DNA from: an uncultured Campylobacterales bacterium
GTDB lineage: Bacteria; Campylobacterota; Campylobacteria; Campylobacterales; CAZXTK01
Length of the DNA stretch: 35,086 bases
Assembly: GCA_964643665.1 (NCBI GenBank)
Contig: CAZXTK010000004.1
Location: 1 to 35,086 of the forward strand
Direction of reading: 5' to 3'
The notes beneath the pieces are model-generated. The model worked only from the letters and a program-made list of their open reading frames with translations, had not been told where the DNA came from and did no database searches. Of this stretch, positions 428 through 23,147 are shown one piece after another. The position numbers were made by a program, and so were the translations under genes. Position 1 is the first letter of the stretch; each line of letters starts with the position of its first letter.

Positions 428-533
428 ATAAACCAAACCAAGAATCATAATGAAAAATATAATTAAAGCTAAACTAAAATTAGATACAATTTATAAACCA
501 AAAGGAGAATTATAATGAAAAATATAATTAAAG
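428..533 (+). repeat. 41-bp imperfect direct repeat (428-468 and 493-533) duplicating the RBS/start region of the 515 gene
   Basis: ATAAACCAAACCAAGAATCATAATGAAAAATATAATTAAAG versus ATAAACCAAAAGGAGAATTATAATGAAAAATATAATTAAAG: 37/41 identical, 65-bp period. Confidence 0.85.
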
Positions 534-1459
534 TGTTTTTGCTAATTGTGCTTACTTCTGAGCTCTCACTGTTTGCAAAAGAGTATCATTTTGAAAAACT
601 AATCAAAAATGTATATATAATGTATGGACCATTAGAAGAGCCAAATGCTAAAAATAAAGGTTTTATGAACAACCCTGTTGCGATAATAGACAAAAAAGGC
701 ATTATTATTATAGACCCAGGTGGCTCTTTGATTGCAGGTAGAATGGTTTTAAGAGAATTAGAAAAAATAAGCAAAAAGCCAGTAATAGCAGTTTTTAATA
801 CACATATACATGGCGATCATTGGCTTGGCAATGGCGCTATAAAAGAAAAATACCCAAAAGCAGTGATTTATGCCGACCCGCTTATGATAAAGCGTGCAAA
901 AAATGGCGAAGGCGAAAAATGGGTTAAAATTATGAATAAATTAACCAATAATGTAACAAAAGATACCAAAGCAGTATATCCTACTAACTCAGCTGCCAAT
1001 TTGCAAAAAATAAAAATATCTAATCAAGTGTTTATAATTCATCATTTTAAGCCAATAGCACACACAAATACAGATATTCTAATAGAACATAAAAACTCCA
1101 ACACTATGCTTATGGGTGATACATCAATGATAAAGAGAATGGGGGATTTTAGAGGGGTTTCTAGTATTTATGGAAATATAGATGTTTTAAAGTATGCGCT
1201 CAAACAAAAAATGAGTATATATATTCCAGGACATGGGCAAGCAGGAAGCGCAAAAATTGCAATTTTGCCATATTTGAATTATTTAACCAAATTAGAGCAA
1301 ATCACCAAGCAAGGCTACAAGAATGAATTAGAAGACTACCAAGTAAAAAAAATAGCTATAAAAAAGTTAGATAGTTACAAAAATTGGCACGGGTTTTCTA
1401 AAAATATAGGCGCTCAAGTAATTAAAATGTATGCAGAAATAGAAGATAAAGATATGTAA
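515..1459 (+). CDS. Exported MBL-fold metallo-hydrolase, SoxH-like
   Basis: N-terminal signal-peptide-like segment; THIHGDHWLGN metal motif, AHT, GD and PGHG motifs; NKGFMNNP segment typical of SoxH-like proteins; AGGAG RBS at 503-507. Confidence 0.75.
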   Translation: MKNIIKVFLLIVLTSELSLFAKEYHFEKLIKNVYIMYGPLEEPNAKNKGFMNNPVAIIDKKGIIIIDPGGSLIAGRMVLRELEKISKKPVIAVFNTHIHGDHWLGNGAIKEKYPKAVIYADPLMIKRAKNGEGEKWVKIMNKLTNNVTKDTKAVYPTNSAANLQKIKISNQVFIIHHFKPIAHTNTDILIEHKNSNTMLMGDTSMIKRMGDFRGVSSIYGNIDVLKYALKQKMSIYIPGHGQAGSAKIAILPYLNYLTKLEQITKQGYKNELEDYQVKKIAIKKLDSYKNWHGFSKNIGAQVIKMYAEIEDKDM

Positions 1460-15309: not shown

Positions 15310-15984
15310 TTATTTTATTATATCCCTAAAACTATCAAATACCTTATCGGGGTTGTTTTCTCTAATATCTTGCCCCATATTATAGCCGTAGGTTAAAACC
15401 CATACATCTATATTTGCATTTCTTGCTGTTTTGATATCAATAGATGAATCACCTACAAACAATAAATTACTTACATCCACACCCATTTGCTCAGATATAT
15501 AGCCCAGCCCCTTTGGGTTAGGTTTTTTAACATCTAATGTATCACCACTTACAATACAATCAAACATTTTTGTCATATCGTGAAGCTCCAATACTTTATT
15601 AGTAAATCTACCTTCTTTATTGGTCATTACGGCTAATTTCAACCCTTTTTCTCTTAGCTCTACTAGCACTTCTTTTACGCCATCATAGGGCATACCCTTT
15701 GTTGCACATCTTGCGTCGTAATGCTTTTTAAATATCGTATATCCATCATCAAAATAATCTGATTTTTCTATATCGCTTATGCTATCGCCCTTTATGTAAG
15801 ATAGAGCTTCCAAAAACAATGTTTTAGTCCCAAGTCCAATCCATGTACATACTAACTCATTTTTAATAGTTGGCAAGTTCATATCTTTTAGTGTATCGTT
15901 TAGCCCATCTGCTATCTCTTCACATGTTTGAATCAAAGTGCCATCTAAATCAAATACAATACCTTTGTAATCATATGTATTCAT
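15310..15984 (-). CDS. cbbZ: Phosphoglycolate phosphatase (HAD), CbbZ/Gph
   Basis: FDLDGTL, TNK, SGDTLDVKKPNP, VGDSSID and YGYN motifs; last gene of the CBB cluster. Confidence 0.88.
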   Translation of the reverse strand: MNTYDYKGIVFDLDGTLIQTCEEIADGLNDTLKDMNLPTIKNELVCTWIGLGTKTLFLEALSYIKGDSISDIEKSDYFDDGYTIFKKHYDARCATKGMPYDGVKEVLVELREKGLKLAVMTNKEGRFTNKVLELHDMTKMFDCIVSGDTLDVKKPNPKGLGYISEQMGVDVSNLLFVGDSSIDIKTARNANIDVWVLTYGYNMGQDIRENNPDKVFDSFRDIIK

Positions 15985-16012
15985 TTTTTATTCCTTTTAT
16001 TTGTTGTATTTT

Positions 16013-16702
16013 TTAGAGCGATTTTAGTTTTTCTATATTTATATCTGATAAATTATCAACAACCATAAATGCATTGCCAAAATCATGCGCCTTTGTGTAT
16101 ATTGTAGGTGTTATAATTGTCTTTATGTTTGCTTGAGTTGTGGCTTTTATTCCATTGATAGAATCCTCAAAAGCTATTGCTTGAGATGCATCTACGCCTA
16201 ATCTCTCCAAAGCTTGCAGATAAACTTGCGGATGTGGCTTTTTGATAGGTGCGCTATGCCCATCTTCTATAACATCAAAAAAACTCTCCCAATTAGAGCC
16301 TAGATTATAGCTTAGTAGGGCACTTATATTATCTGGCGTGGTAGTTGTTGCAATTGCAATTTTATATTTTTTATCATATGCTTCTTGTATTAGCTCTTCT
16401 ACACCATCTCGTAGTTTTAGAGCACCTTTTGCCACACAATCAGCATAGTTTTGCGTTTTTATAGCGTGAAGCTCTTTTATTAGCTCATCGCTTAAGCTCT
16501 CATTTATATTGCTAGCATGTTTTGCAATTCTCTCTTTGCCTCCTGATACTTCAAGAAGTCGTGTGTATAGCTCATCATTCCAGCACCATTTGTTGACACC
16601 TAATCCTTTTGCTCTAAATGCATAATTAAATGCCTCTAAGTGTAGTCTTTCTGTGTCCGCCAAAGTTCCATCTACATCAAAAATCAATGCTTTTAAATCC
16701 AT
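16013..16702 (-). CDS. cbbY: CbbY HAD phosphatase (xylulose-1,5-bisphosphate phosphatase family)
   Basis: ALIFDVDGTLADTE..HLEAFN, W-x-W...Y..LL.VSGGKER, IATTTTP, KKPHP and EDS motifs diagnostic of CbbY. Confidence 0.9.
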   Translation of the reverse strand: MDLKALIFDVDGTLADTERLHLEAFNYAFRAKGLGVNKWCWNDELYTRLLEVSGGKERIAKHASNINESLSDELIKELHAIKTQNYADCVAKGALKLRDGVEELIQEAYDKKYKIAIATTTTPDNISALLSYNLGSNWESFFDVIEDGHSAPIKKPHPQVYLQALERLGVDASQAIAFEDSINGIKATTQANIKTIITPTIYTKAHDFGNAFMVVDNLSDINIEKLKSL

Positions 16703-16728: not shown

Positions 16729-16758
16729 ATTATAATAATCGTTATTTGAGATTGTCAA
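16729..16758 (-). promoter_or_regulatory. Consensus sigma70-type promoter for cbbY-cbbZ
   Basis: Minus strand reads TTGACA (16758-16753), 18 nt, TATAAT (16734-16729), 26 nt upstream of the cbbY start. Confidence 0.65.
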
Positions 16759-16878: not shown

Positions 16879-17922
16879 TTATTTTTGGTTAGCATACATA
16901 TCTACATAAAATTGTAGAGATTTTGCTTTTATTTTGCTTGCTTGACCAGCACATCCAAATGCTTCAAATCTATCTTCACATATACCTTGAGCTGCTTCTT
17001 TTGCTGCTGCAAATAGTTTTCTTGGGTCAAACTCACCTGGGTTTTGTGTACAAAGTCTTCTAATAGCACCAGTCATTGCAAGTCTTAAATCTGTATCAAT
17101 ATTTACTTTTCTAGCACCATTTTTAATGCCTTCTACAATTTTATCAACTGGAACACCATAAGTATTTGCTATATCGCCACCATTTTCTCTGATGATTTTC
17201 AACCATTCTTGTGGAACAGAAGAAGAACCATGCATTACAATATGAGTGTTAGGTATTTTCTCAGAAATTGCTTTAATTCTTTTAATATCTAATACATCGT
17301 CACCTGGCTCTTTTGTAAATTTATATGCACCATGACTTGTTCCAATAGCAACAGCCAATGCATCAACACCAGTTTTCTTTACAAAATCCAAGGCTTCATC
17401 AGGGTCTGTAAGCATTTGATCGTGGCTTAATTTACCAACTGCACCAACACCATCTTCTTCACCAGCTTCACCAGTTTCTAACGAACCTAGACATCCTAAC
17501 TCTCCCTCAACACTCACACCAATAGCATGAGCCATATCTACTACTGTTTTTGTAACATCTACATTGTATTCATAACTTGCTGGAGTTTTACCATCTTCTC
17601 TTAGAGATCCGTCCATCATTACAGAAGTAAAACCACTTCTCATACTTTGTTGACAAACTGCTGGGCAAGAACCATGATCTTGATGTAAAACCACAGGAAT
17701 ATCTGGGTTGGCTTCAACAGCTGCCTCAACCATTTTTCTTAAAAATTCTTCTCCTGCATATTTTCTTGCACCTGCTGATGCTTGAAGTATTACAGGGCTA
17801 TCACATTTTTTAGCTGCATCCATAATAGAGTGAATTTGCTCCATATTGTTTATGTTAAACGCTGGAACACCATAAGAGTTTTCCGCTGCGTGGTCTAATA
17901 ATTGTTTTAATGAAATTAACAT
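16879..17922 (-). CDS. cbbA: Class II fructose/sedoheptulose-bisphosphate aldolase, Calvin-cycle subtype (CbbA)
   Basis: [65 protein letters not shown] and FDPRK. Confidence 0.95.
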
Positions 17923-18010: not shown

Positions 18011-19987
18011 TTATTTTATTAACTTTTTAGCAGTAGTTACAATATTTTCAGTAGTAATGTTGAAGTGTTTATATAAATCATCTATTGGAGCACTTGCACC
18101 AAAAGTATCAGTCATACCAATAAACACATCACTTCTATCTAAGTATTGATGCCATCCAAAGCCAGTCATTGCTTCTATTGCTATTCTTGGAGCGTTTCCT
18201 AAAACATCATCTTGATATTCTTTGCTTTGAGCATTAAATTTTTCAAAACAAGGGAAAGACACAACCTCTGCTTTTATTCCGTCGTTTGCCAACTCTTGAG
18301 CTGATTTTAAAGCTAATTCAACTTCTGAACCACTAGCTAATAAAGTAATATCTGGGTTTTTAATATTTTTTAGTTTATAAGCACCCAAAGCTACTTTGTT
18401 TTCTTTTGTTTTTTTATCAAATCTAACAAGCGGTAAACCTTGTCTTGATAATGCCAATGCAGATGGAGTGTTTTCGCTCATTAAAGCACATTCCCAAGCC
18501 TCAGCAGTTTCTACAACATCACATGGTCTATAAACATTGATATTTGGTGTAGCTCTTAATGTTGCAACTTGCTCTATTGGTTGGTGAGTTGGACCATCCT
18601 CTCCTAAACCTATACTATCATGAGTTAATACATAAATAACTCTTTGTTTCATTAGAGCAGATAATCTAATAGAGCCTTTCATGAAGTCACTAAAGATTAA
18701 GAATGTTCCACCATAAGGAATAATACCACCATAAAGACTAAGACCATTCATCATAGCACCCATTACATGTTCTCTAATTCCGTAGTGTAAATATCTACCT
18801 TTGAAGTTTGTTCTTGTGATAGAGGCAGTATAAGGCGTTTTTGTTAAGTTAGAGCCTGTAAGGTCAGCACTACCGCCAACTATAAAGTTAAACTTTTTAG
18901 TAATAGCTTCAAGCGCCATTTGGCTTGCTTTTCTTGTTGCTACTTTTGTGTTGTTAGCAATTACTTCTTTTTTGAACGAGCTTATAACTCTATTAAGAGA
19001 GCTTAAATCTTTTTTGAAAGTTTCTTCAAATTTTTTCTTTTTAGGAGAGTTGTTTAGCTCATCATTCCAAGCATTATATGCCTTAATACCTCGTTCTTTT
19101 ACGCACTCCCAAGATTTGATAATATCATTTGGTATCTCAAATGGCTTATGGCTCCATCCTAGAGCTTTTCTTGTAGCATTTGCTTCTTCTTCGCCTAGTG
19201 GGGCACCGTGAACATCGTGAGTTCCAGCTAAGTTAGGTGAGCCAAAACCAATTTGTGTTTTACAAGCTATCAATGTTGGTTTTGTAGATTTTTTTGCTTT
19301 TATTATTGCTTCGTTAATTTCTTCGTAATTGTGTCCATCAATTTTGATTGTATTCCAATTAGACGCTTTAAATCTGGCAATTTGGTTTGTAGAAGTAGAA
19401 ACAGAAGTGTGACCATCGATTGAAATTTCATTATCATCCCAAAACAAAATTAATTTGCTTAGTTTCAGGTGTCCTGCCATATCTATGGCTTCTTGCGATA
19501 TACCTTCTGCCAAACAACCATCACCAGATATTACATAAGTGTAATGATCTACTAAGTTTTTGCCAAATCTAGTAGCAAAGTATTTTTGCGCAACTGCCAT
19601 ACCAACAGCAGTGCTAAGACCTTGACCTAATGGACCAGTTGTTGTCTCAACTCCTAATGTGTGACCATATTCTGGGTGACCCATAGTTACGGAGTTTAGT
19701 TGTCTGAAGTTTTTAATGTCCTCAATGCTTATATCTTTGTATCCAACTAAAAAGTTTAATGCATAATGTAGCATAGAACCATGTCCAGCCGATAGAATAA
19801 ATCTATCTCTGTTTGGCCATTTAGGATTATCTGGGTTTATGTTGATGTGCTCGCTAAAAAGAACAGTAGCAACATCTGCCATACCCATAGGCATACCAGG
19901 GTGACCCGAAGAAGCTTTATTTACAGCATCAATTGCCAAAAATCTAATAGCATTAGCCATATTTTTTAATTCATTTGTATTTTTCAT
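18011..19987 (-). CDS. cbbT: Transketolase (CbbT)
   Basis: SGHPGMPMG, RDRFILSAGHGS, GHPE, TTGPLGQG, GDGCL.EG and THDSIGLGEDGPTHQP. Confidence 0.97.
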   Translation of the reverse strand: MKNTNELKNMANAIRFLAIDAVNKASSGHPGMPMGMADVATVLFSEHININPDNPKWPNRDRFILSAGHGSMLHYALNFLVGYKDISIEDIKNFRQLNSVTMGHPEYGHTLGVETTTGPLGQGLSTAVGMAVAQKYFATRFGKNLVDHYTYVISGDGCLAEGISQEAIDMAGHLKLSKLILFWDDNEISIDGHTSVSTSTNQIARFKASNWNTIKIDGHNYEEINEAIIKAKKSTKPTLIACKTQIGFGSPNLAGTHDVHGAPLGEEEANATRKALGWSHKPFEIPNDIIKSWECVKERGIKAYNAWNDELNNSPKKKKFEETFKKDLSSLNRVISSFKKEVIANNTKVATRKASQMALEAITKKFNFIVGGSADLTGSNLTKTPYTASITRTNFKGRYLHYGIREHVMGAMMNGLSLYGGIIPYGGTFLIFSDFMKGSIRLSALMKQRVIYVLTHDSIGLGEDGPTHQPIEQVATLRATPNINVYRPCDVVETAEAWECALMSENTPSALALSRQGLPLVRFDKKTKENKVALGAYKLKNIKNPDITLLASGSEVELALKSAQELANDGIKAEVVSFPCFEKFNAQSKEYQDDVLGNAPRIAIEAMTGFGWHQYLDRSDVFIGMTDTFGASAPIDDLYKHFNITTENIVTTAKKLIK

Positions 19988-20023: not shown

Positions 20024-20902
20024 CTAATCTCTAAGCTTTTTACTCTCAGATATCATTTTTGAAAGCATTGGAGTTAGTATAAGCTCTAATGCAAGTTCAA
20101 ATTTACCACCAGGAACAACCAATGTATTAGCATTTGTCATATAACTTTCATGTATTAAGCTAAGCAAATATGGGAAATCTACATTTTTAGCATCTTTAAA
20201 TGAGATGATAACGATACTCTCGCTAGGTCCTGGCACACTTGTTGCATCAAATGGGTATGAAGTATCTACTACTGGCGCTCTTTGGAAGTTTATATCTGTT
20301 AGTTTAAATTGAGGACAAATAACATTAACATAATCAGGCATTCTTCTTAATATTGTGTCTGTGATAGCCTCGTGAGAATATCCTCTTGCATTGTGATCTC
20401 TGTATATTTTTTGTATCCATTCAAGGTTTATTATAGGAACAATACCTAATTTTAAATCTACATATTGAGCTATATTTACACTATCAGTCCCAACAGCACC
20501 ATGCAAACCTTCGTAAAATAGCATATCGCTATCAGGGTCTAAATCTCTCCAAGGTGTAAAAGTCCCGCTAGGGCAACCGTATTGCTCTGCTTCTTCGTCG
20601 TTGTGTATGTAAGTTCTAGTTTTACCTGTTCCTGTTTTAGAATAGCTTGCCATAGTTTCTTCTAGCTTGTCTAGAATATTAGCATCTAAACCAAAGTGAG
20701 AAAAATGATGATTGCCTTTTTCTAACTCTTTTTGAGATTGTTCTTTCATAGCCGCTCTATCATATTTATGAAAAGCATCTCCTTCTATTTCTGCTGGTTT
20801 TATATTTTCTTTTTCGCAAATATTATGAAATATTTTTTGCGCAAATGAAGTTCCAGCTCCTGATGAGCCTGTTATTGACATTATTGGATGTTTTTTTGAC
20901 AT
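20024..20902 (-). CDS. cbbP: Phosphoribulokinase, proteobacterial type (CbbP/PrkB)
   Basis: MSKKHPI.SITGSSGAGTS P-loop, EGDAFH, FSHF, FYEGLHG, NLEWIQKI.RD, ILRRM and DINFQR. Aligns without gaps to my recollection of R. sphaeroides PRK. Confidence 0.97.
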   Translation of the reverse strand: MSKKHPIMSITGSSGAGTSFAQKIFHNICEKENIKPAEIEGDAFHKYDRAAMKEQSQKELEKGNHHFSHFGLDANILDKLEETMASYSKTGTGKTRTYIHNDEEAEQYGCPSGTFTPWRDLDPDSDMLFYEGLHGAVGTDSVNIAQYVDLKLGIVPIINLEWIQKIYRDHNARGYSHEAITDTILRRMPDYVNVICPQFKLTDINFQRAPVVDTSYPFDATSVPGPSESIVIISFKDAKNVDFPYLLSLIHESYMTNANTLVVPGGKFELALELILTPMLSKMISESKKLRD

Positions 20903-20931: not shown

Positions 20932-21891
20932 TTATTTGAAGTTTTTAAAATAATCTAAAATAACTTCTACTTCTTTTTTAGAACCAAATATCAAAGGAGT
21001 TCTTTGATGAATTGTTGTTGGCTCAATATCTAATATATCCTTATGACCATTAGTGGCTATACCACCAGCTTGCTCCACCATAAAAGCAACAGGATATGCC
21101 TCATAAATTAGTCTCAATCTTCCGTTTTCATAACCTTCTCTTTTATCGCTTGGATACAAGAAAACTCCACCTCTACTAAAGATTCTTGATAAATCAGCTA
21201 TCAAAGAAGCAATCCATCTCATATTGAAGTTTTCTCCTCTTTTACCATCTTTACCAGCCATTACATCTTTTATGTATTCGCTAACATTTTTATGCCAATG
21301 TCTTTGGTTAGATGCATTGATTGCAAATTCATTATAGCTTGGAGCTATTTTTAAATCTTTTTGTGCAAGTTCAAATTTGCCACTATTAGTGTTTAGTCTA
21401 TACATATGTGCACCCGCACCAGCTGTTACAAGAGCAGTTGTTTGTGGACCATACACAACAAGCATAGAAGCAACTTGCTCTCTACCACTGCTAAAAGGCA
21501 TACCATTATCGTTTTTTGCTTTTGTTTTAAAAATTGCAATAATTGTTCCAATTGAAACATTAGAAGCAATATTAGAAGAGCCATCAAGTGGGTCTATAGC
21601 AACAATATATGGTGCATCAGCGTTAATGTCTACTTCGCTTTCTTGCTCTTCTGAATAATAAGCACTTACTTGTTTGCTATCTTTACAAGCATCATAAAAT
21701 AAATCATCTGCTATTACATCAAGAGCTTTTTGAGAGTCACCATCTTGGTTTGTTTCGCCTATTTCGCCACCAAGTTCCCCGCCATTTCGTATTGTATCGC
21801 TTAGCTTTGCGGCCGCCGTACTCATTTTGCATATTAAATCATTTAATGATTCATCTACATTTTCTAATTTGTTTTTCGAACATATTCCCAT
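20932..21891 (-). CDS. cbbF: Class I fructose-1,6-bisphosphatase (CbbF; probably also SBPase)
   Basis: QKALDV, SEE, IDPLDGSSN, YGPQT, FNMRWIASL, GGVFLYP and GRLRLIYEA; first gene of the cluster. Confidence 0.95.
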   Translation of the reverse strand: MGICSKNKLENVDESLNDLICKMSTAAAKLSDTIRNGGELGGEIGETNQDGDSQKALDVIADDLFYDACKDSKQVSAYYSEEQESEVDINADAPYIVAIDPLDGSSNIASNVSIGTIIAIFKTKAKNDNGMPFSSGREQVASMLVVYGPQTTALVTAGAGAHMYRLNTNSGKFELAQKDLKIAPSYNEFAINASNQRHWHKNVSEYIKDVMAGKDGKRGENFNMRWIASLIADLSRIFSRGGVFLYPSDKREGYENGRLRLIYEAYPVAFMVEQAGGIATNGHKDILDIEPTTIHQRTPLIFGSKKEVEVILDYFKNFK

Positions 21892-22277: not shown

Positions 22278-23147
22278 TTGAGCAATATATGCAAACCATT
22301 AACAAAATGCTTGTTTCCTGTTGCAGGATATGGCACAAGATTTTTGCCAATAACAAAAACAATCTCAAAAGTTATGTTGCCAATAAACACTAAGCCAATA
22401 ATAGCCTATGGAGTAAATGAGGCATATAATAGTGGGTTTGATAGTATGAATTTTGTTACAAATCAACAAGATGTGCAAATAGAGAACTACTTTAAACCAT
22501 ACAAAGAATTAGAAAAACTGCTCAAAGATAAAAACAAGAAAAATGAATTAAATATGTTAGAAAGCATAAACAATATTTCAAATAATTGCAAATTCTCTTA
22601 TATTAAGCAAAAAAAAATACAAGGTTTAGGTGATGCTATTTTAAATGCCAAAGAGCTTGTAGGTAGCGAGGATTTTGGTGTTATTTTGGCTGATGATTTA
22701 TGTTTTAATGCAGATGATAGCGTGTTAAAACAAATGAAAGAAGTATATGAAAAATACCCTAATTATTGCATTGTGGCTGTAGAAGAGATCGAACTTAAAA
22801 ACTCGCATAAATACGGAATAGTATCTGGTAAGCAAATAGAAGATAATGTTTTTTTACTTGATGAGATGGTAGAAAAACCTTCAAGGCAAGAAGCACCGAG
22901 CAATCTTGCAATAATAGGCAGGTATATTTTAAAAAATGAGATTTTTGATGTGTTAGAGCATACAAAAATAGGAGTAGGTGGAGAACTGCAAATAACAGAT
23001 GCACTAAATTCGCTTGCAAAAAAACAAAAAGTATTAGCTTATAAATTTAAAGGTGTTAGATACGATTGTGGGTCAATAGATGGCTATATGAAGGCTCAAA
23101 ACTTTTTTTATAACCTATCAAAAGAGGCAAAAATTAGCAATGATTAA
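22278..23147 (+). CDS. galU: UTP--glucose-1-phosphate uridylyltransferase
   Basis: PVAGYGTRFLP.TK, GLGDAI, LADD, VEKP, GRYIL, GELQITDA and YDCG; TTG start after AAGGA. Confidence 0.93.
   Translation: MSNICKPLTKCLFPVAGYGTRFLPITKTISKVMLPINTKPIIAYGVNEAYNSGFDSMNFVTNQQDVQIENYFKPYKELEKLLKDKNKKNELNMLESINNISNNCKFSYIKQKKIQGLGDAILNAKELVGSEDFGVILADDLCFNADDSVLKQMKEVYEKYPNYCIVAVEEIELKNSHKYGIVSGKQIEDNVFLLDEMVEKPSRQEAPSNLAIIGRYILKNEIFDVLEHTKIGVGGELQITDALNSLAKKQKVLAYKFKGVRYDCGSIDGYMKAQNFFYNLSKEAKISND

What the first reader, a model, noticed from the sequence alone, without database searches (positions are those of the whole stretch)
20132..20815. PRK keeps its catalytic residues but has lost all five allosteric-site arginines
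Seen: numbering from Met1 gives D42, H45, R49, K53, H69, Y98, H100, E131, K165, R168, D169, R173 and R187, matching without gaps the substrate and catalytic residues of R. sphaeroides PRK as I recall them. Positions 30, 31, 221, 234 and 257 are E, K, T, S and N (ICEKE, PFDATSVP, VIISFK, YMTNAN). Established (recalled from R. sphaeroides structure and mutagenesis work, e.g. Kung et al. 1999): these are Arg in IFRRE, PFIARWIP, VIRFR and MSRAN, and line the inter-subunit site for NADH activation and AMP inhibition. Inference: concerted loss of that site in an otherwise conserved enzyme suggests a PRK uncoupled from NADH/AMP control, possibly an adaptation to the new host's redox metabolism. I am not aware of this being described.
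Basis: partly seen in the sequence, partly recalled or inferred. Interest (0 to 1): 0.8.

Follow-up and report, generated by a model that had tools for sequence, protein, structure and literature searches.

The report
Calvin-cycle kinase missing its regulatory arginines
A sulfur-vent bacterium that borrowed the Calvin cycle carries an intact phosphoribulokinase whose four conserved arginines, thought to bind the on/off signals NADH and AMP, have all been replaced; similar losses turn up in several other AT-rich lineages.

Summary
The ORF 20024-20902 (-) is a type I phosphoribulokinase (PRK) that aligns without gaps to R. sphaeroides PRK (1a7j). All catalytic residues are kept. R30, R31, R221, R234 and R257 are E, K, T, S and N.

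R31, R221, R234 and R257 are near-invariant in 198 distinct close homologues (198, 194, 198, 198). R30 is not conserved. The window keeps all 7 other invariant arginines, so the loss is specific. It is also derived: the gene nests inside an alphaproteobacterial-type clade in which every other member has the full set. A sister strain differs mostly at synonymous sites, so the gene is not decaying.

The host is a 1.2-Mb, ~31% GC Campylobacterota genome. It has RuBisCO but no ATP-citrate lyase domain match and no LysR/CbbR regulator match.

The loss is not unique:
- At least 7 state changes occur on a 52-row tree.
- They include a second Campylobacterales PRK, the sole PRKs of four RuBisCO-bearing gammaproteobacterial-class genomes, and E. 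coli PrkB.
- Incomplete sets occur mostly at low-GC loci.

Best reading: an active PRK without the canonical NADH/AMP site, lost through relaxed selection plus AT pressure rather than proven adaptation. No enzyme assay exists. The site's identity rests on recalled literature.

The parts
20024..20902 (-). Type I (bacterial) phosphoribulokinase gene, 292 codons plus stop
   Evidence: ORF. NCBIfam NF011997 scores 448.8 bits against a cut-off of 362. Ungapped match to PDB 1a7j at E 3.7e-108. It is the only PRK match in the genome.
20849..20869 (-). P-loop GSSGAGT, residues 12-18
   Evidence: Read from the translation. Identical letters in 1a7j in the printed alignment.
20810..20815 (-). Codons 30-31, GAA AAA = E K, where 1a7j has R R
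   Evidence: R31 is 198/198 in close homologues. R30 is variable.
20240..20242 (-). Codon 221, ACA = T, where 1a7j has R
   Evidence: R in 194/198.
20201..20203 (-). Codon 234, TCA = S, where 1a7j has R
   Evidence: R in 198/198.
20132..20134 (-). Codon 257, AAT = N, where 1a7j has R
   Evidence: R in 198/198. N also in the other Campylobacterales PRK from G007.
20117..20257 (-). Residues 216-262, a remodelled C-terminal segment around the lost arginines
   Evidence: 13 of 28 columns conserved at 95% or more are changed here, against 9 of 98 elsewhere (Fisher p = 3.2e-5). 6 of the 10 non-synonymous differences to a sister strain fall in residues 238-259.
20932..21891 (-). Class 1 fructose-bisphosphatase (cbbF-like), first gene of the cluster
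   Evidence: NCBIfam NF006780 scores 360 bits against a cut-off of 358. The FBPase-PRK-transketolase order is the same as in the C. necator, C. azotoformans, A. carboxidovorans and S. meliloti records.
18011..19987 (-). Transketolase (cbbT-like)
   Evidence: TIGR00232, 845 bits.
16879..17922 (-). Class II fructose-bisphosphate aldolase (cbbA-like)
   Evidence: TIGR01521, 590 bits.
15310..16702 (-). Two HAD-family phosphatase genes. The distal one (15310-15984) is just under the cut-off for phosphoglycolate phosphatase.
   Evidence: The gene at 15310-15984 matches NF009695 at 213.4 bits against a cut-off of 225. The gene at 16013-16702 is below the cut-offs of the named phosphatase models (e.g. 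TIGR02009, 105 bits against 153.35) and passes only the generic HAD-IA family model TIGR01509 (64.3 bits against 29.4).

Best explanation
This is a working type I phosphoribulokinase whose canonical NADH-activation/AMP-inhibition pocket has been dismantled. The ATP/Ru5P catalytic machinery is untouched. The four conserved arginines, which by recalled structural and mutagenesis work hold the effector phosphates at a subunit interface (R31 from one chain; R221, R234 and R257 from the other), are now K, T, S and N, and the surrounding segment 216-262 is remodelled. I infer that the enzyme no longer responds to NADH or AMP through that site and runs as an essentially unregulated kinase. The likely cause is relaxed selection on regulation. 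The host is a small, AT-rich Campylobacterota genome in which the acquired Calvin cycle seems to be the only CO2-fixation route, since no ATP-citrate lyase domain match was found. No LysR/CbbR-type regulator match was found either. Strong AT mutation pressure has purged every arginine that is not indispensable. Shown: the residue states, their conservation elsewhere, the derived and specific nature of the loss, the operon and genome context, and the excess of synonymous differences to a sister strain. Inferred: loss of effector binding, retained activity, and the evolutionary cause.
For: Ungapped alignment to 1a7j with all catalytic residues kept. NF011997 score above its cut-off. 4 of 4 'site' arginines lost against 0 of 7 other invariant arginines. 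Three of the four replacements are uncharged (T, S, N). 13 of 28 conserved columns are changed in residues 216-262, against 9 of 98 elsewhere. In the careful tree the window and its 95% sibling sit inside a 14-row clade (support 100/99) whose other 12 rows all carry R31/R221/R234/R257, on a stem of 0.64 against a median tip of 0.22. A sister strain in run X4 shows 25 synonymous against 10 non-synonymous codon changes among the 40 of 74 differences that were listed. Genome context: one RuBisCO large subunit, one PRK and no class II PRK, and no match to the ATP-citrate lyase citrate-binding domain, which 30 of 40 relatives have. No LysR substrate-domain match in a 96.6%-complete genome. Both named PRKs from organisms reported as NADH-activated keep the four arginines: 1a7j and the C. 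necator plasmid copy.
Against: There is no biochemical measurement. That these residues are the NADH/AMP site comes from recall of Kung et al. 1999, which I could not read. K31, K236 and K239 leave some positive charge, so weak effector binding is not excluded. In R. sphaeroides PRK, activity is said to depend strongly on NADH (recalled), so simple loss of the site could give a sluggish enzyme unless compensated, and compensation is not shown. Only 40 of 74 strain differences were visible, and they come from short contigs that may mix strains. No RNA run holds the gene, so expression is untested. The link with low GC is only a trend: in 6 independent pairs the direction is consistent, with a median sign-test p of 0.125.
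Confidence: 0.58

Rival explanations
1. Regulation is kept but rewired. The interface pocket still binds a phosphorylated effector (NADH, AMP, PEP or another) through lysines (K31, K236, K239) and the remodelled 216-262 segment, or control has moved to another site.
For: K31 is a conservative replacement. K236 and K239 lie in the same segment. The 216-262 segment is changed in a concentrated way rather than at random, which could reflect reshaping rather than decay.
Against: Three of the four invariant arginines became T, S and N. The same segment carries 6 of the 10 non-synonymous differences between two close strains, which looks like relaxed constraint rather than a newly tuned site.
Confidence: 0.2
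2. Slightly deleterious drift. In a reduced, AT-rich genome, mutation pressure and weak selection eroded the site, leaving a PRK that is poorly activatable or otherwise compromised and merely tolerated.
For: Arg is 3.1% against a mean of 8.0%, and Lys 7.2% against 3.7%. All 9 remaining Arg codons are AGA and GC3 is 0.205. 12 of 13 loci with GC under 0.45 have an incomplete set, against 8 of 28 at higher GC. The genome is only 1.21 Mb.
Against: All seven other invariant arginines and every catalytic residue survived the same pressure. Synonymous changes dominate between strains. This is the only PRK in a genome that has RuBisCO and no detected ATP-citrate lyase domain, so a crippled enzyme would be costly.
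Confidence: 0.12
3. The protein has left Calvin-cycle duty and works like the enterobacterial PrkB-type homologues, which also lack the arginines and occur without RuBisCO.
For: E. coli PrkB reads A30 Q31 K221 H234 H257 and Proteus reads Q Q K R T. Genomes G416 and G417 carry PRK homologues without the arginines and gave no RuBisCO match.
Against: The window gene lies between cbbF-like and cbbT-like genes. The genome has RuBisCO. On the tree the gene is nested in the alphaproteobacterial-type cbb clade, far from PrkB.
Confidence: 0.04

Closest known systems
Rhodobacter sphaeroides PRK (PDB 1a7j), the reference type I PRK
   Same: Same length class, ungapped alignment over 1-288 at E 3.7e-108, and identical P-loop and catalytic/substrate residues.
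   Different: 1a7j has R30, R31, R221, R234 and R257; the window has E, K, T, S and N. Type I PRKs of such bacteria are described as NADH-activated and AMP-inhibited (passages in PMC4806589, and in preprint 10.1101/422709).
Cupriavidus necator plasmid-borne PRK (cbbP) in its cbb operon
   Same: Same FBPase-PRK-transketolase-phosphoglycolate phosphatase neighbourhood. 162 of 292 residues are identical (about 55%).
   Different: It keeps R31, R221, R234 and R257, with C at 30. NADH activation of this enzyme is recalled, not read here.
PRK of the second Calvin-cycle Campylobacterales genome (G007); compare the 'Ca. Thiobarba' PRK described in PMC6908604
   Same: AT-rich Campylobacterales host. 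PRK lies between FBPase and transketolase genes. RuBisCO is present and the ATP-citrate lyase domain was not found. R31 and R257 are lost, with N257 identical. The paper reports the Thiobarba PRK on a long, poorly placed branch and never mentions NADH (passages). I did not establish whether G007 is that organism.
   Different: Only 57% identical. It keeps R221 and R234. It groups with gammaproteobacterial-class PRKs, not with the window. A single clade of the two is rejected on the better-sampled data set (p-AU 0.0097) but was not rejected on the first one (p-AU 0.141).
Stand-alone PRKs of RuBisCO-bearing genomes of a gammaproteobacterial class (G569, G735, G487, G684)
   Same: Each is the sole PRK of a genome with RuBisCO. 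The arginine set is missing (VQQSN, HKQTN) or reduced to R31 (ARLHT, KRQHN). The loci are of low to moderate GC.
   Different: 41-46% identical to the window. They form a separate clade. The two whose surroundings I examined are not in a cbb operon: G735's lies beside coaBC-like and solute-symporter genes and G487's beside gyrB. They also differ at residue 186.
Enterobacterial PrkB-type PRK homologues (E. coli, Proteus)
   Same: Type I PRK fold family, scoring over the NF011997 cut-off in the E. coli control. The arginines are absent.
   Different: 48-50% identical. They form the outgroup on the tree and are not in a Calvin-cycle context.

Membership tests
Type I (bacterial, R. sphaeroides-type) phosphoribulokinase, NCBIfam NF011997 | Profile score over the curated cut-off, full length | tested here: met
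   448.8 bits against a cut-off of 362, residues 1-289 on profile positions 1-288 of 290.
Type I (bacterial, R. sphaeroides-type) phosphoribulokinase, NCBIfam NF011997 | P-loop and catalytic/substrate residues (D42, H45, R49, K53, H69, Y98, H100, E131, K165, R168, D169, R173, R186, R187) | tested here: met
   All present. The roles of H45, K165 and R168 are stated in PMC5241800 (passage); the roles of the others are recalled.
Type I (bacterial, R. sphaeroides-type) phosphoribulokinase, NCBIfam NF011997 | Calvin-cycle context: cbb gene cluster and RuBisCO in the genome | tested here: met
   FBPase-PRK-transketolase-aldolase-HAD-phosphatase cluster on one strand. RuBisCO large subunit on contig C41.
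Type I (bacterial, R. sphaeroides-type) phosphoribulokinase, NCBIfam NF011997 | Conserved arginines assigned to the NADH/AMP allosteric site (R31, R221, R234, R257) | tested here: not met
   K, T, S and N, against 194-198 of 198 R in close homologues.
Type I (bacterial, R. sphaeroides-type) phosphoribulokinase, NCBIfam NF011997 | Allosteric activation by NADH and inhibition by AMP | not testable with these tools
   Needs an enzyme assay. The literature statement that all type I PRKs have it was seen in preprint 10.1101/422709 (passage).
Type I (bacterial, R. sphaeroides-type) phosphoribulokinase, NCBIfam NF011997 | Homo-octamer of ~32-kDa subunits | not tested
   No oligomer prediction was run. 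Subunit size fits (292 aa).
Type II (cyanobacterial/plant/archaeal) PRK, NF005655 | Profile score over the curated cut-off | tested here: not met
   53.2 bits against a cut-off of 236. The whole-genome search finds only this same gene, at 52.2 bits.
Enterobacterial PrkB-type PRK homologue | Groups with E. coli/Proteus PrkB and lies outside a Calvin-cycle context | tested here: not met
   Nested in the alphaproteobacterial-type cbb clade, with PrkB as outgroup. Located in a cbb cluster.

The most novel reading that the evidence does not exclude
Dismantling of the PRK NADH/AMP pocket is a convergent, repeatable step when the Calvin cycle becomes the sole, always-on carbon pathway of small, AT-rich sulfur-oxidising autotrophs. 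It happened independently in two Campylobacterales lineages that obtained PRK from different donors, and in gammaproteobacterial-class lineages. Here it goes together with the absence of any detected CbbR-type regulator. If so, the textbook statement that all type I PRKs are NADH-activated and AMP-inhibited is wrong for whole clades of chemolithoautotrophs, and flux control in their Calvin cycle sits elsewhere.
Probability: 0.3. Interest if true: 0.6.

Novelty: new variant of a known kind. Interest (0 to 1): 0.42.

Why it matters
Type I PRK is treated in the literature as uniformly NADH-activated and AMP-inhibited (preprint 10.1101/422709, passage seen). This is how many bacteria tie Calvin-cycle flux to reducing power and energy charge. 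The window shows a clean, recent case in which the four conserved arginines assigned to that control are gone while the enzyme is otherwise intact. The host replaced the reductive TCA cycle with an acquired Calvin cycle. The survey made here shows the same loss in several other lineages, including the sole PRKs of RuBisCO-bearing genomes. If biochemistry confirms insensitivity, these are natural, effector-independent type I PRKs. That would be useful for understanding how obligate chemolithoautotrophs control, or do not control, carbon fixation, and as deregulated parts for engineered CO2 fixation. If instead they are still regulated, the accepted site assignment needs revisiting.

Tried and rejected
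- **Mis-sliced first count.** The ORF was cut without its start codon, so the positions were off by one. I discarded it and repeated the count.
- **Literature on the site.** Kung et al. 1999 and Runquist & Miziorko 2006 are not held. Searches for the residue names with 'phosphoribulokinase' gave nothing relevant. Searches found only general statements. I therefore found no printed description of a type I PRK lacking these arginines in those six searches (and 21 for Thiobarba). Subscription journals are not covered.
- **Sibling DNA.** The metagenome scan returned 80 PRKs at 55-60% identity but not the 95% sibling, so no full-length dN/dS could be computed. I used run contigs instead. Only 40 of 74 differences were listed.
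- **Expression.** No RNA holder was listed.
- **'NADH is not this host's redox currency'.** A NuoF-type subunit is present, so I dropped that idea.
- **One shared Campylobacterota PRK clade explaining N257 in both lineages.** Not rejected on the first data set (p-AU 0.141). Rejected on the second (p-AU 0.0097). I favour independent acquisition but it is not settled.
- **GC association.** The independent-pairs test has too few pairs to reach significance.
- **Earlier notes of this scan.** Nothing found.
- **Not run.** Structure and complex prediction, because they return no coordinates or ligand verdict that would bear on the site.

Full report
**What is there.** The finding lies in an ORF at 20024-20902 on the minus strand, 292 codons. 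Its coordinates, 20132-20815, run from codon 257 to codon 30. The protein matches NCBIfam NF011997 (phosphoribulokinase) at 448.8 bits against a cut-off of 362.

It also matches the R. sphaeroides PRK chain 1a7j at E 3.7e-108 as one ungapped stretch, 1-288 on 1-288. R. sphaeroides numbering therefore applies directly.

At the five positions in question 1a7j reads R30, R31, R221, R234 and R257.

**Is it more than chance?** I aligned two sets of homologues and pooled them.
- The 119 nearest database homologues other than one 95% sibling.
- 80 PRKs translated from metagenome contigs.
- Together these give 198 distinct rows.

Twelve columns are arginine in at least 90% of those rows. The window keeps R49, R96, R168, R173, R186, R187 and R208. 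It has K at 31 and 46, T at 221, S at 234 and N at 257.

| Position | Arg among 198 close homologues | Window |
|---|---|---|
| 31 | 198 | K |
| 221 | 194 | T |
| 234 | 198 | S |
| 257 | 198 | N |

R30 is different. It is R in 103 of 119, 61 of 80 and 22 of 30 rows in three samples, and it is Cys in the C. necator plasmid PRK. The conserved unit is a tetrad, not a pentad.

Changes in otherwise conserved columns pile up around the tetrad. In residues 216-262, 13 of 28 conserved columns are changed, against 9 of 98 elsewhere (p = 3.2e-5).

**Host and context.**
- The gene lies between a class 1 FBPase gene and a transketolase gene. A class II aldolase gene and two HAD phosphatase genes follow, all on one strand.
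- This is the FBPase-PRK-transketolase order of proteobacterial cbb operons.
- The rest of the window carries Campylobacterota-type markers: nifS_epsilon and the PRK08487 and PRK08416 models.
- The genome (G000) is 1,209,327 bases in 114 contigs and 96.6% complete.
- It has one PRK and one RuBisCO large subunit.
- It gave no match to the ATP-citrate lyase citrate-binding domain, which 30 of 40 relatives have.
- It gave no match to the LysR substrate domain, so no CbbR-type regulator was detected.
- PRK is rare in the phylum. It was found in 0 of 400 other sampled Campylobacterota genomes. Among 40 relatives a second genome gave only a weak, 28%-identity match, so just one, G007, has a true PRK.
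- This matches the published picture of Campylobacterota that acquired a Calvin cycle (PMC6908604; passages and section 9 read). That paper never mentions NADH.

**The loss is derived.** I built a careful tree of 52 rows with the five trait columns masked.
- The window and its sibling sit inside a 14-row clade (support 100/99) with A. carboxidovorans, S. meliloti and C. azotoformans PRKs.
- All 12 other rows of that clade carry the full tetrad.
- The stem leading to the window is 0.64 changes per site, against a median tip of 0.22.
- An earlier 53-row tree gave the same placement.

**The gene is not decaying.** Contigs of a related strain in run X4 cover residues 42-292. Of the 74 differences, 40 were listed. 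They fall in 35 codons, 25 synonymous and 10 non-synonymous, and six of the ten non-synonymous ones lie in residues 238-259. Four database proteins at 94-100% identity all keep the frame, the catalytic residues and E/K/T/S/N. Expression could not be tested.

**The loss is not unique.**

| PRK | Residues 30/31/221/234/257 | RuBisCO in genome |
|---|---|---|
| Window | E K T S N | yes |
| G007 (other Calvin-cycle Campylobacterales) | K A R R N | yes |
| G418 | K K R H R | yes |
| G569 | V Q Q S N | yes |
| G735 | H K Q T N | yes |
| G487 | A R L H T | yes |
| G684 | K R Q H N | yes |
| E. coli PrkB | A Q K H H | not searched (PF00016 did not ring in the E. coli control) |
| G416 | K K K T S | no match |
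| G417 | A I K S N | no match |

- G007 groups with gammaproteobacterial-class PRKs, next to a full-tetrad sequence. Forcing it into one clade with the window is rejected on this data set (p-AU 0.0097). It was not rejected on the first, more poorly sampled set (p-AU 0.141).
- In a sample of 400 genomes of the class of G418, 220 hold a PRK. That tally includes four genomes flagged unpublished, which I did not use. The 30 best-scoring PRKs all have the tetrad.
- I chose 20 genomes from the low end of the best E-values. Twelve have a full-length PRK with the catalytic set largely intact (residue 186 varies, and residues 53 and 131 in some); none of the 12 has the tetrad. Three more have altered catalytic residues and five are cut by contig ends.
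- Four of those twelve are the sole PRK of a genome with a strong RuBisCO match: G569, G735, G487 and G684. The two whose surroundings I examined, in G735 and G487, stand alone rather than in a cbb operon.
- On the 52-row tree the state 'full tetrad or not' changes at least 7 times.

**Composition.** The window protein has 3.1% Arg and 7.2% Lys, against means of 8.0% and 3.7%. All nine remaining Arg codons are AGA and GC3 is 0.205. Among 41 rows with DNA, 12 of 13 loci below 45% GC have an incomplete tetrad, against 8 of 28 above. In phylogenetically independent pairs the direction is always the same, but the pairs are too few (median sign-test p 0.125). AT pressure therefore removes arginines wherever selection allows. 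The informative point is that it was allowed at the tetrad and nowhere in the catalytic set.

**Most likely mechanism.** The protein is an active PRK whose canonical NADH/AMP pocket is gone. It should not be activated by NADH or inhibited by AMP through that site (confidence about 0.58).

The cause is more likely relaxed selection on regulation than a specific redox adaptation. The organism appears to depend on the Calvin cycle alone and shows no detected CbbR. A NuoF-type NADH module is present, which argues against a redox-specific explanation.

The rivals, with my confidence in each, are:
- Retained or rewired effector binding through lysines: about 0.2.
- Mildly deleterious drift: about 0.12.
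- A PrkB-like change of role: about 0.04.

**Limits.**
- That R31, R221, R234 and R257 (with R30) line the inter-subunit NADH/AMP site is recalled from Kung et al. 1999. I saw that paper only in two reference lists and it is not held.
- General statements that type I PRKs are NADH-activated and AMP-inhibited were read in PMC4806589 and in preprint 10.1101/422709.
- NADH activation of the C. necator enzyme is recalled.
- No assay, structure or expression data exist for this protein.

Noticed in passing
whole genome G000 (window = contig C4): No match to the LysR substrate-binding domain anywhere in a 96.6%-complete genome. The acquired cbb cluster therefore has no detectable CbbR-type activator. 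The gene divergent from the cluster is a galU-like gene at 22278-23147, just under the TIGR01099 cut-off (324 bits against 326.8), not a regulator.
   Followed up: partly
window 16729-16758 (-): A perfect sigma-70 consensus (TTGACA, 18 nt, TATAAT; 12 of 12) lies in the 176-base gap between the aldolase gene and the two HAD phosphatase genes. The phosphatase pair may have its own promoter. Promoter-like sites in the region are not more frequent than in shuffles (35 against a mean of 32.2).
   Followed up: no
L145 (G788) and L148 (G637): Two PRK-like proteins of RuBisCO-negative genomes keep all five arginines (RRRRR) but have lost most catalytic residues (EYRKYLKERLA-GR at the catalytic columns). 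This is the reverse of the window. They could be effector-binding pseudo-kinases.
   Followed up: no
L092 (G416), L093 (G417): Gammaproteobacterial genomes, one labelled 'uncultured Thiomicrospira sp.' in its record title, carry a PRK homologue over the NF011997 cut-off but gave no RuBisCO large-subunit match. This resembles E. coli PrkB. The role of PRK homologues outside the Calvin cycle is open.
   Followed up: partly
relatives G001-G040: The ATP-citrate lyase citrate-binding domain is found in 30 of 40 relatives. It was not found in G000 or in G007, the two relatives that carry PRK and RuBisCO. This is consistent with replacement of the reductive TCA cycle by the Calvin cycle in both.
   Followed up: partly
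window 20120-20123: In the related strain of run X4 one base is left out at 20120 and an A is put in behind 20123. The paired change restores the frame within about one codon, near residue 260, inside the remodelled segment. It may also be an alignment or assembly artefact of a 277-base contig.
   Followed up: no
window 515-1459 (+): A SoxH-related metallo-beta-lactamase-fold hydrolase, below the cut-offs of the quinoprotein-relay models (135 bits against 280). It would fit a sulfur-oxidiser but was not examined.
   Followed up: no
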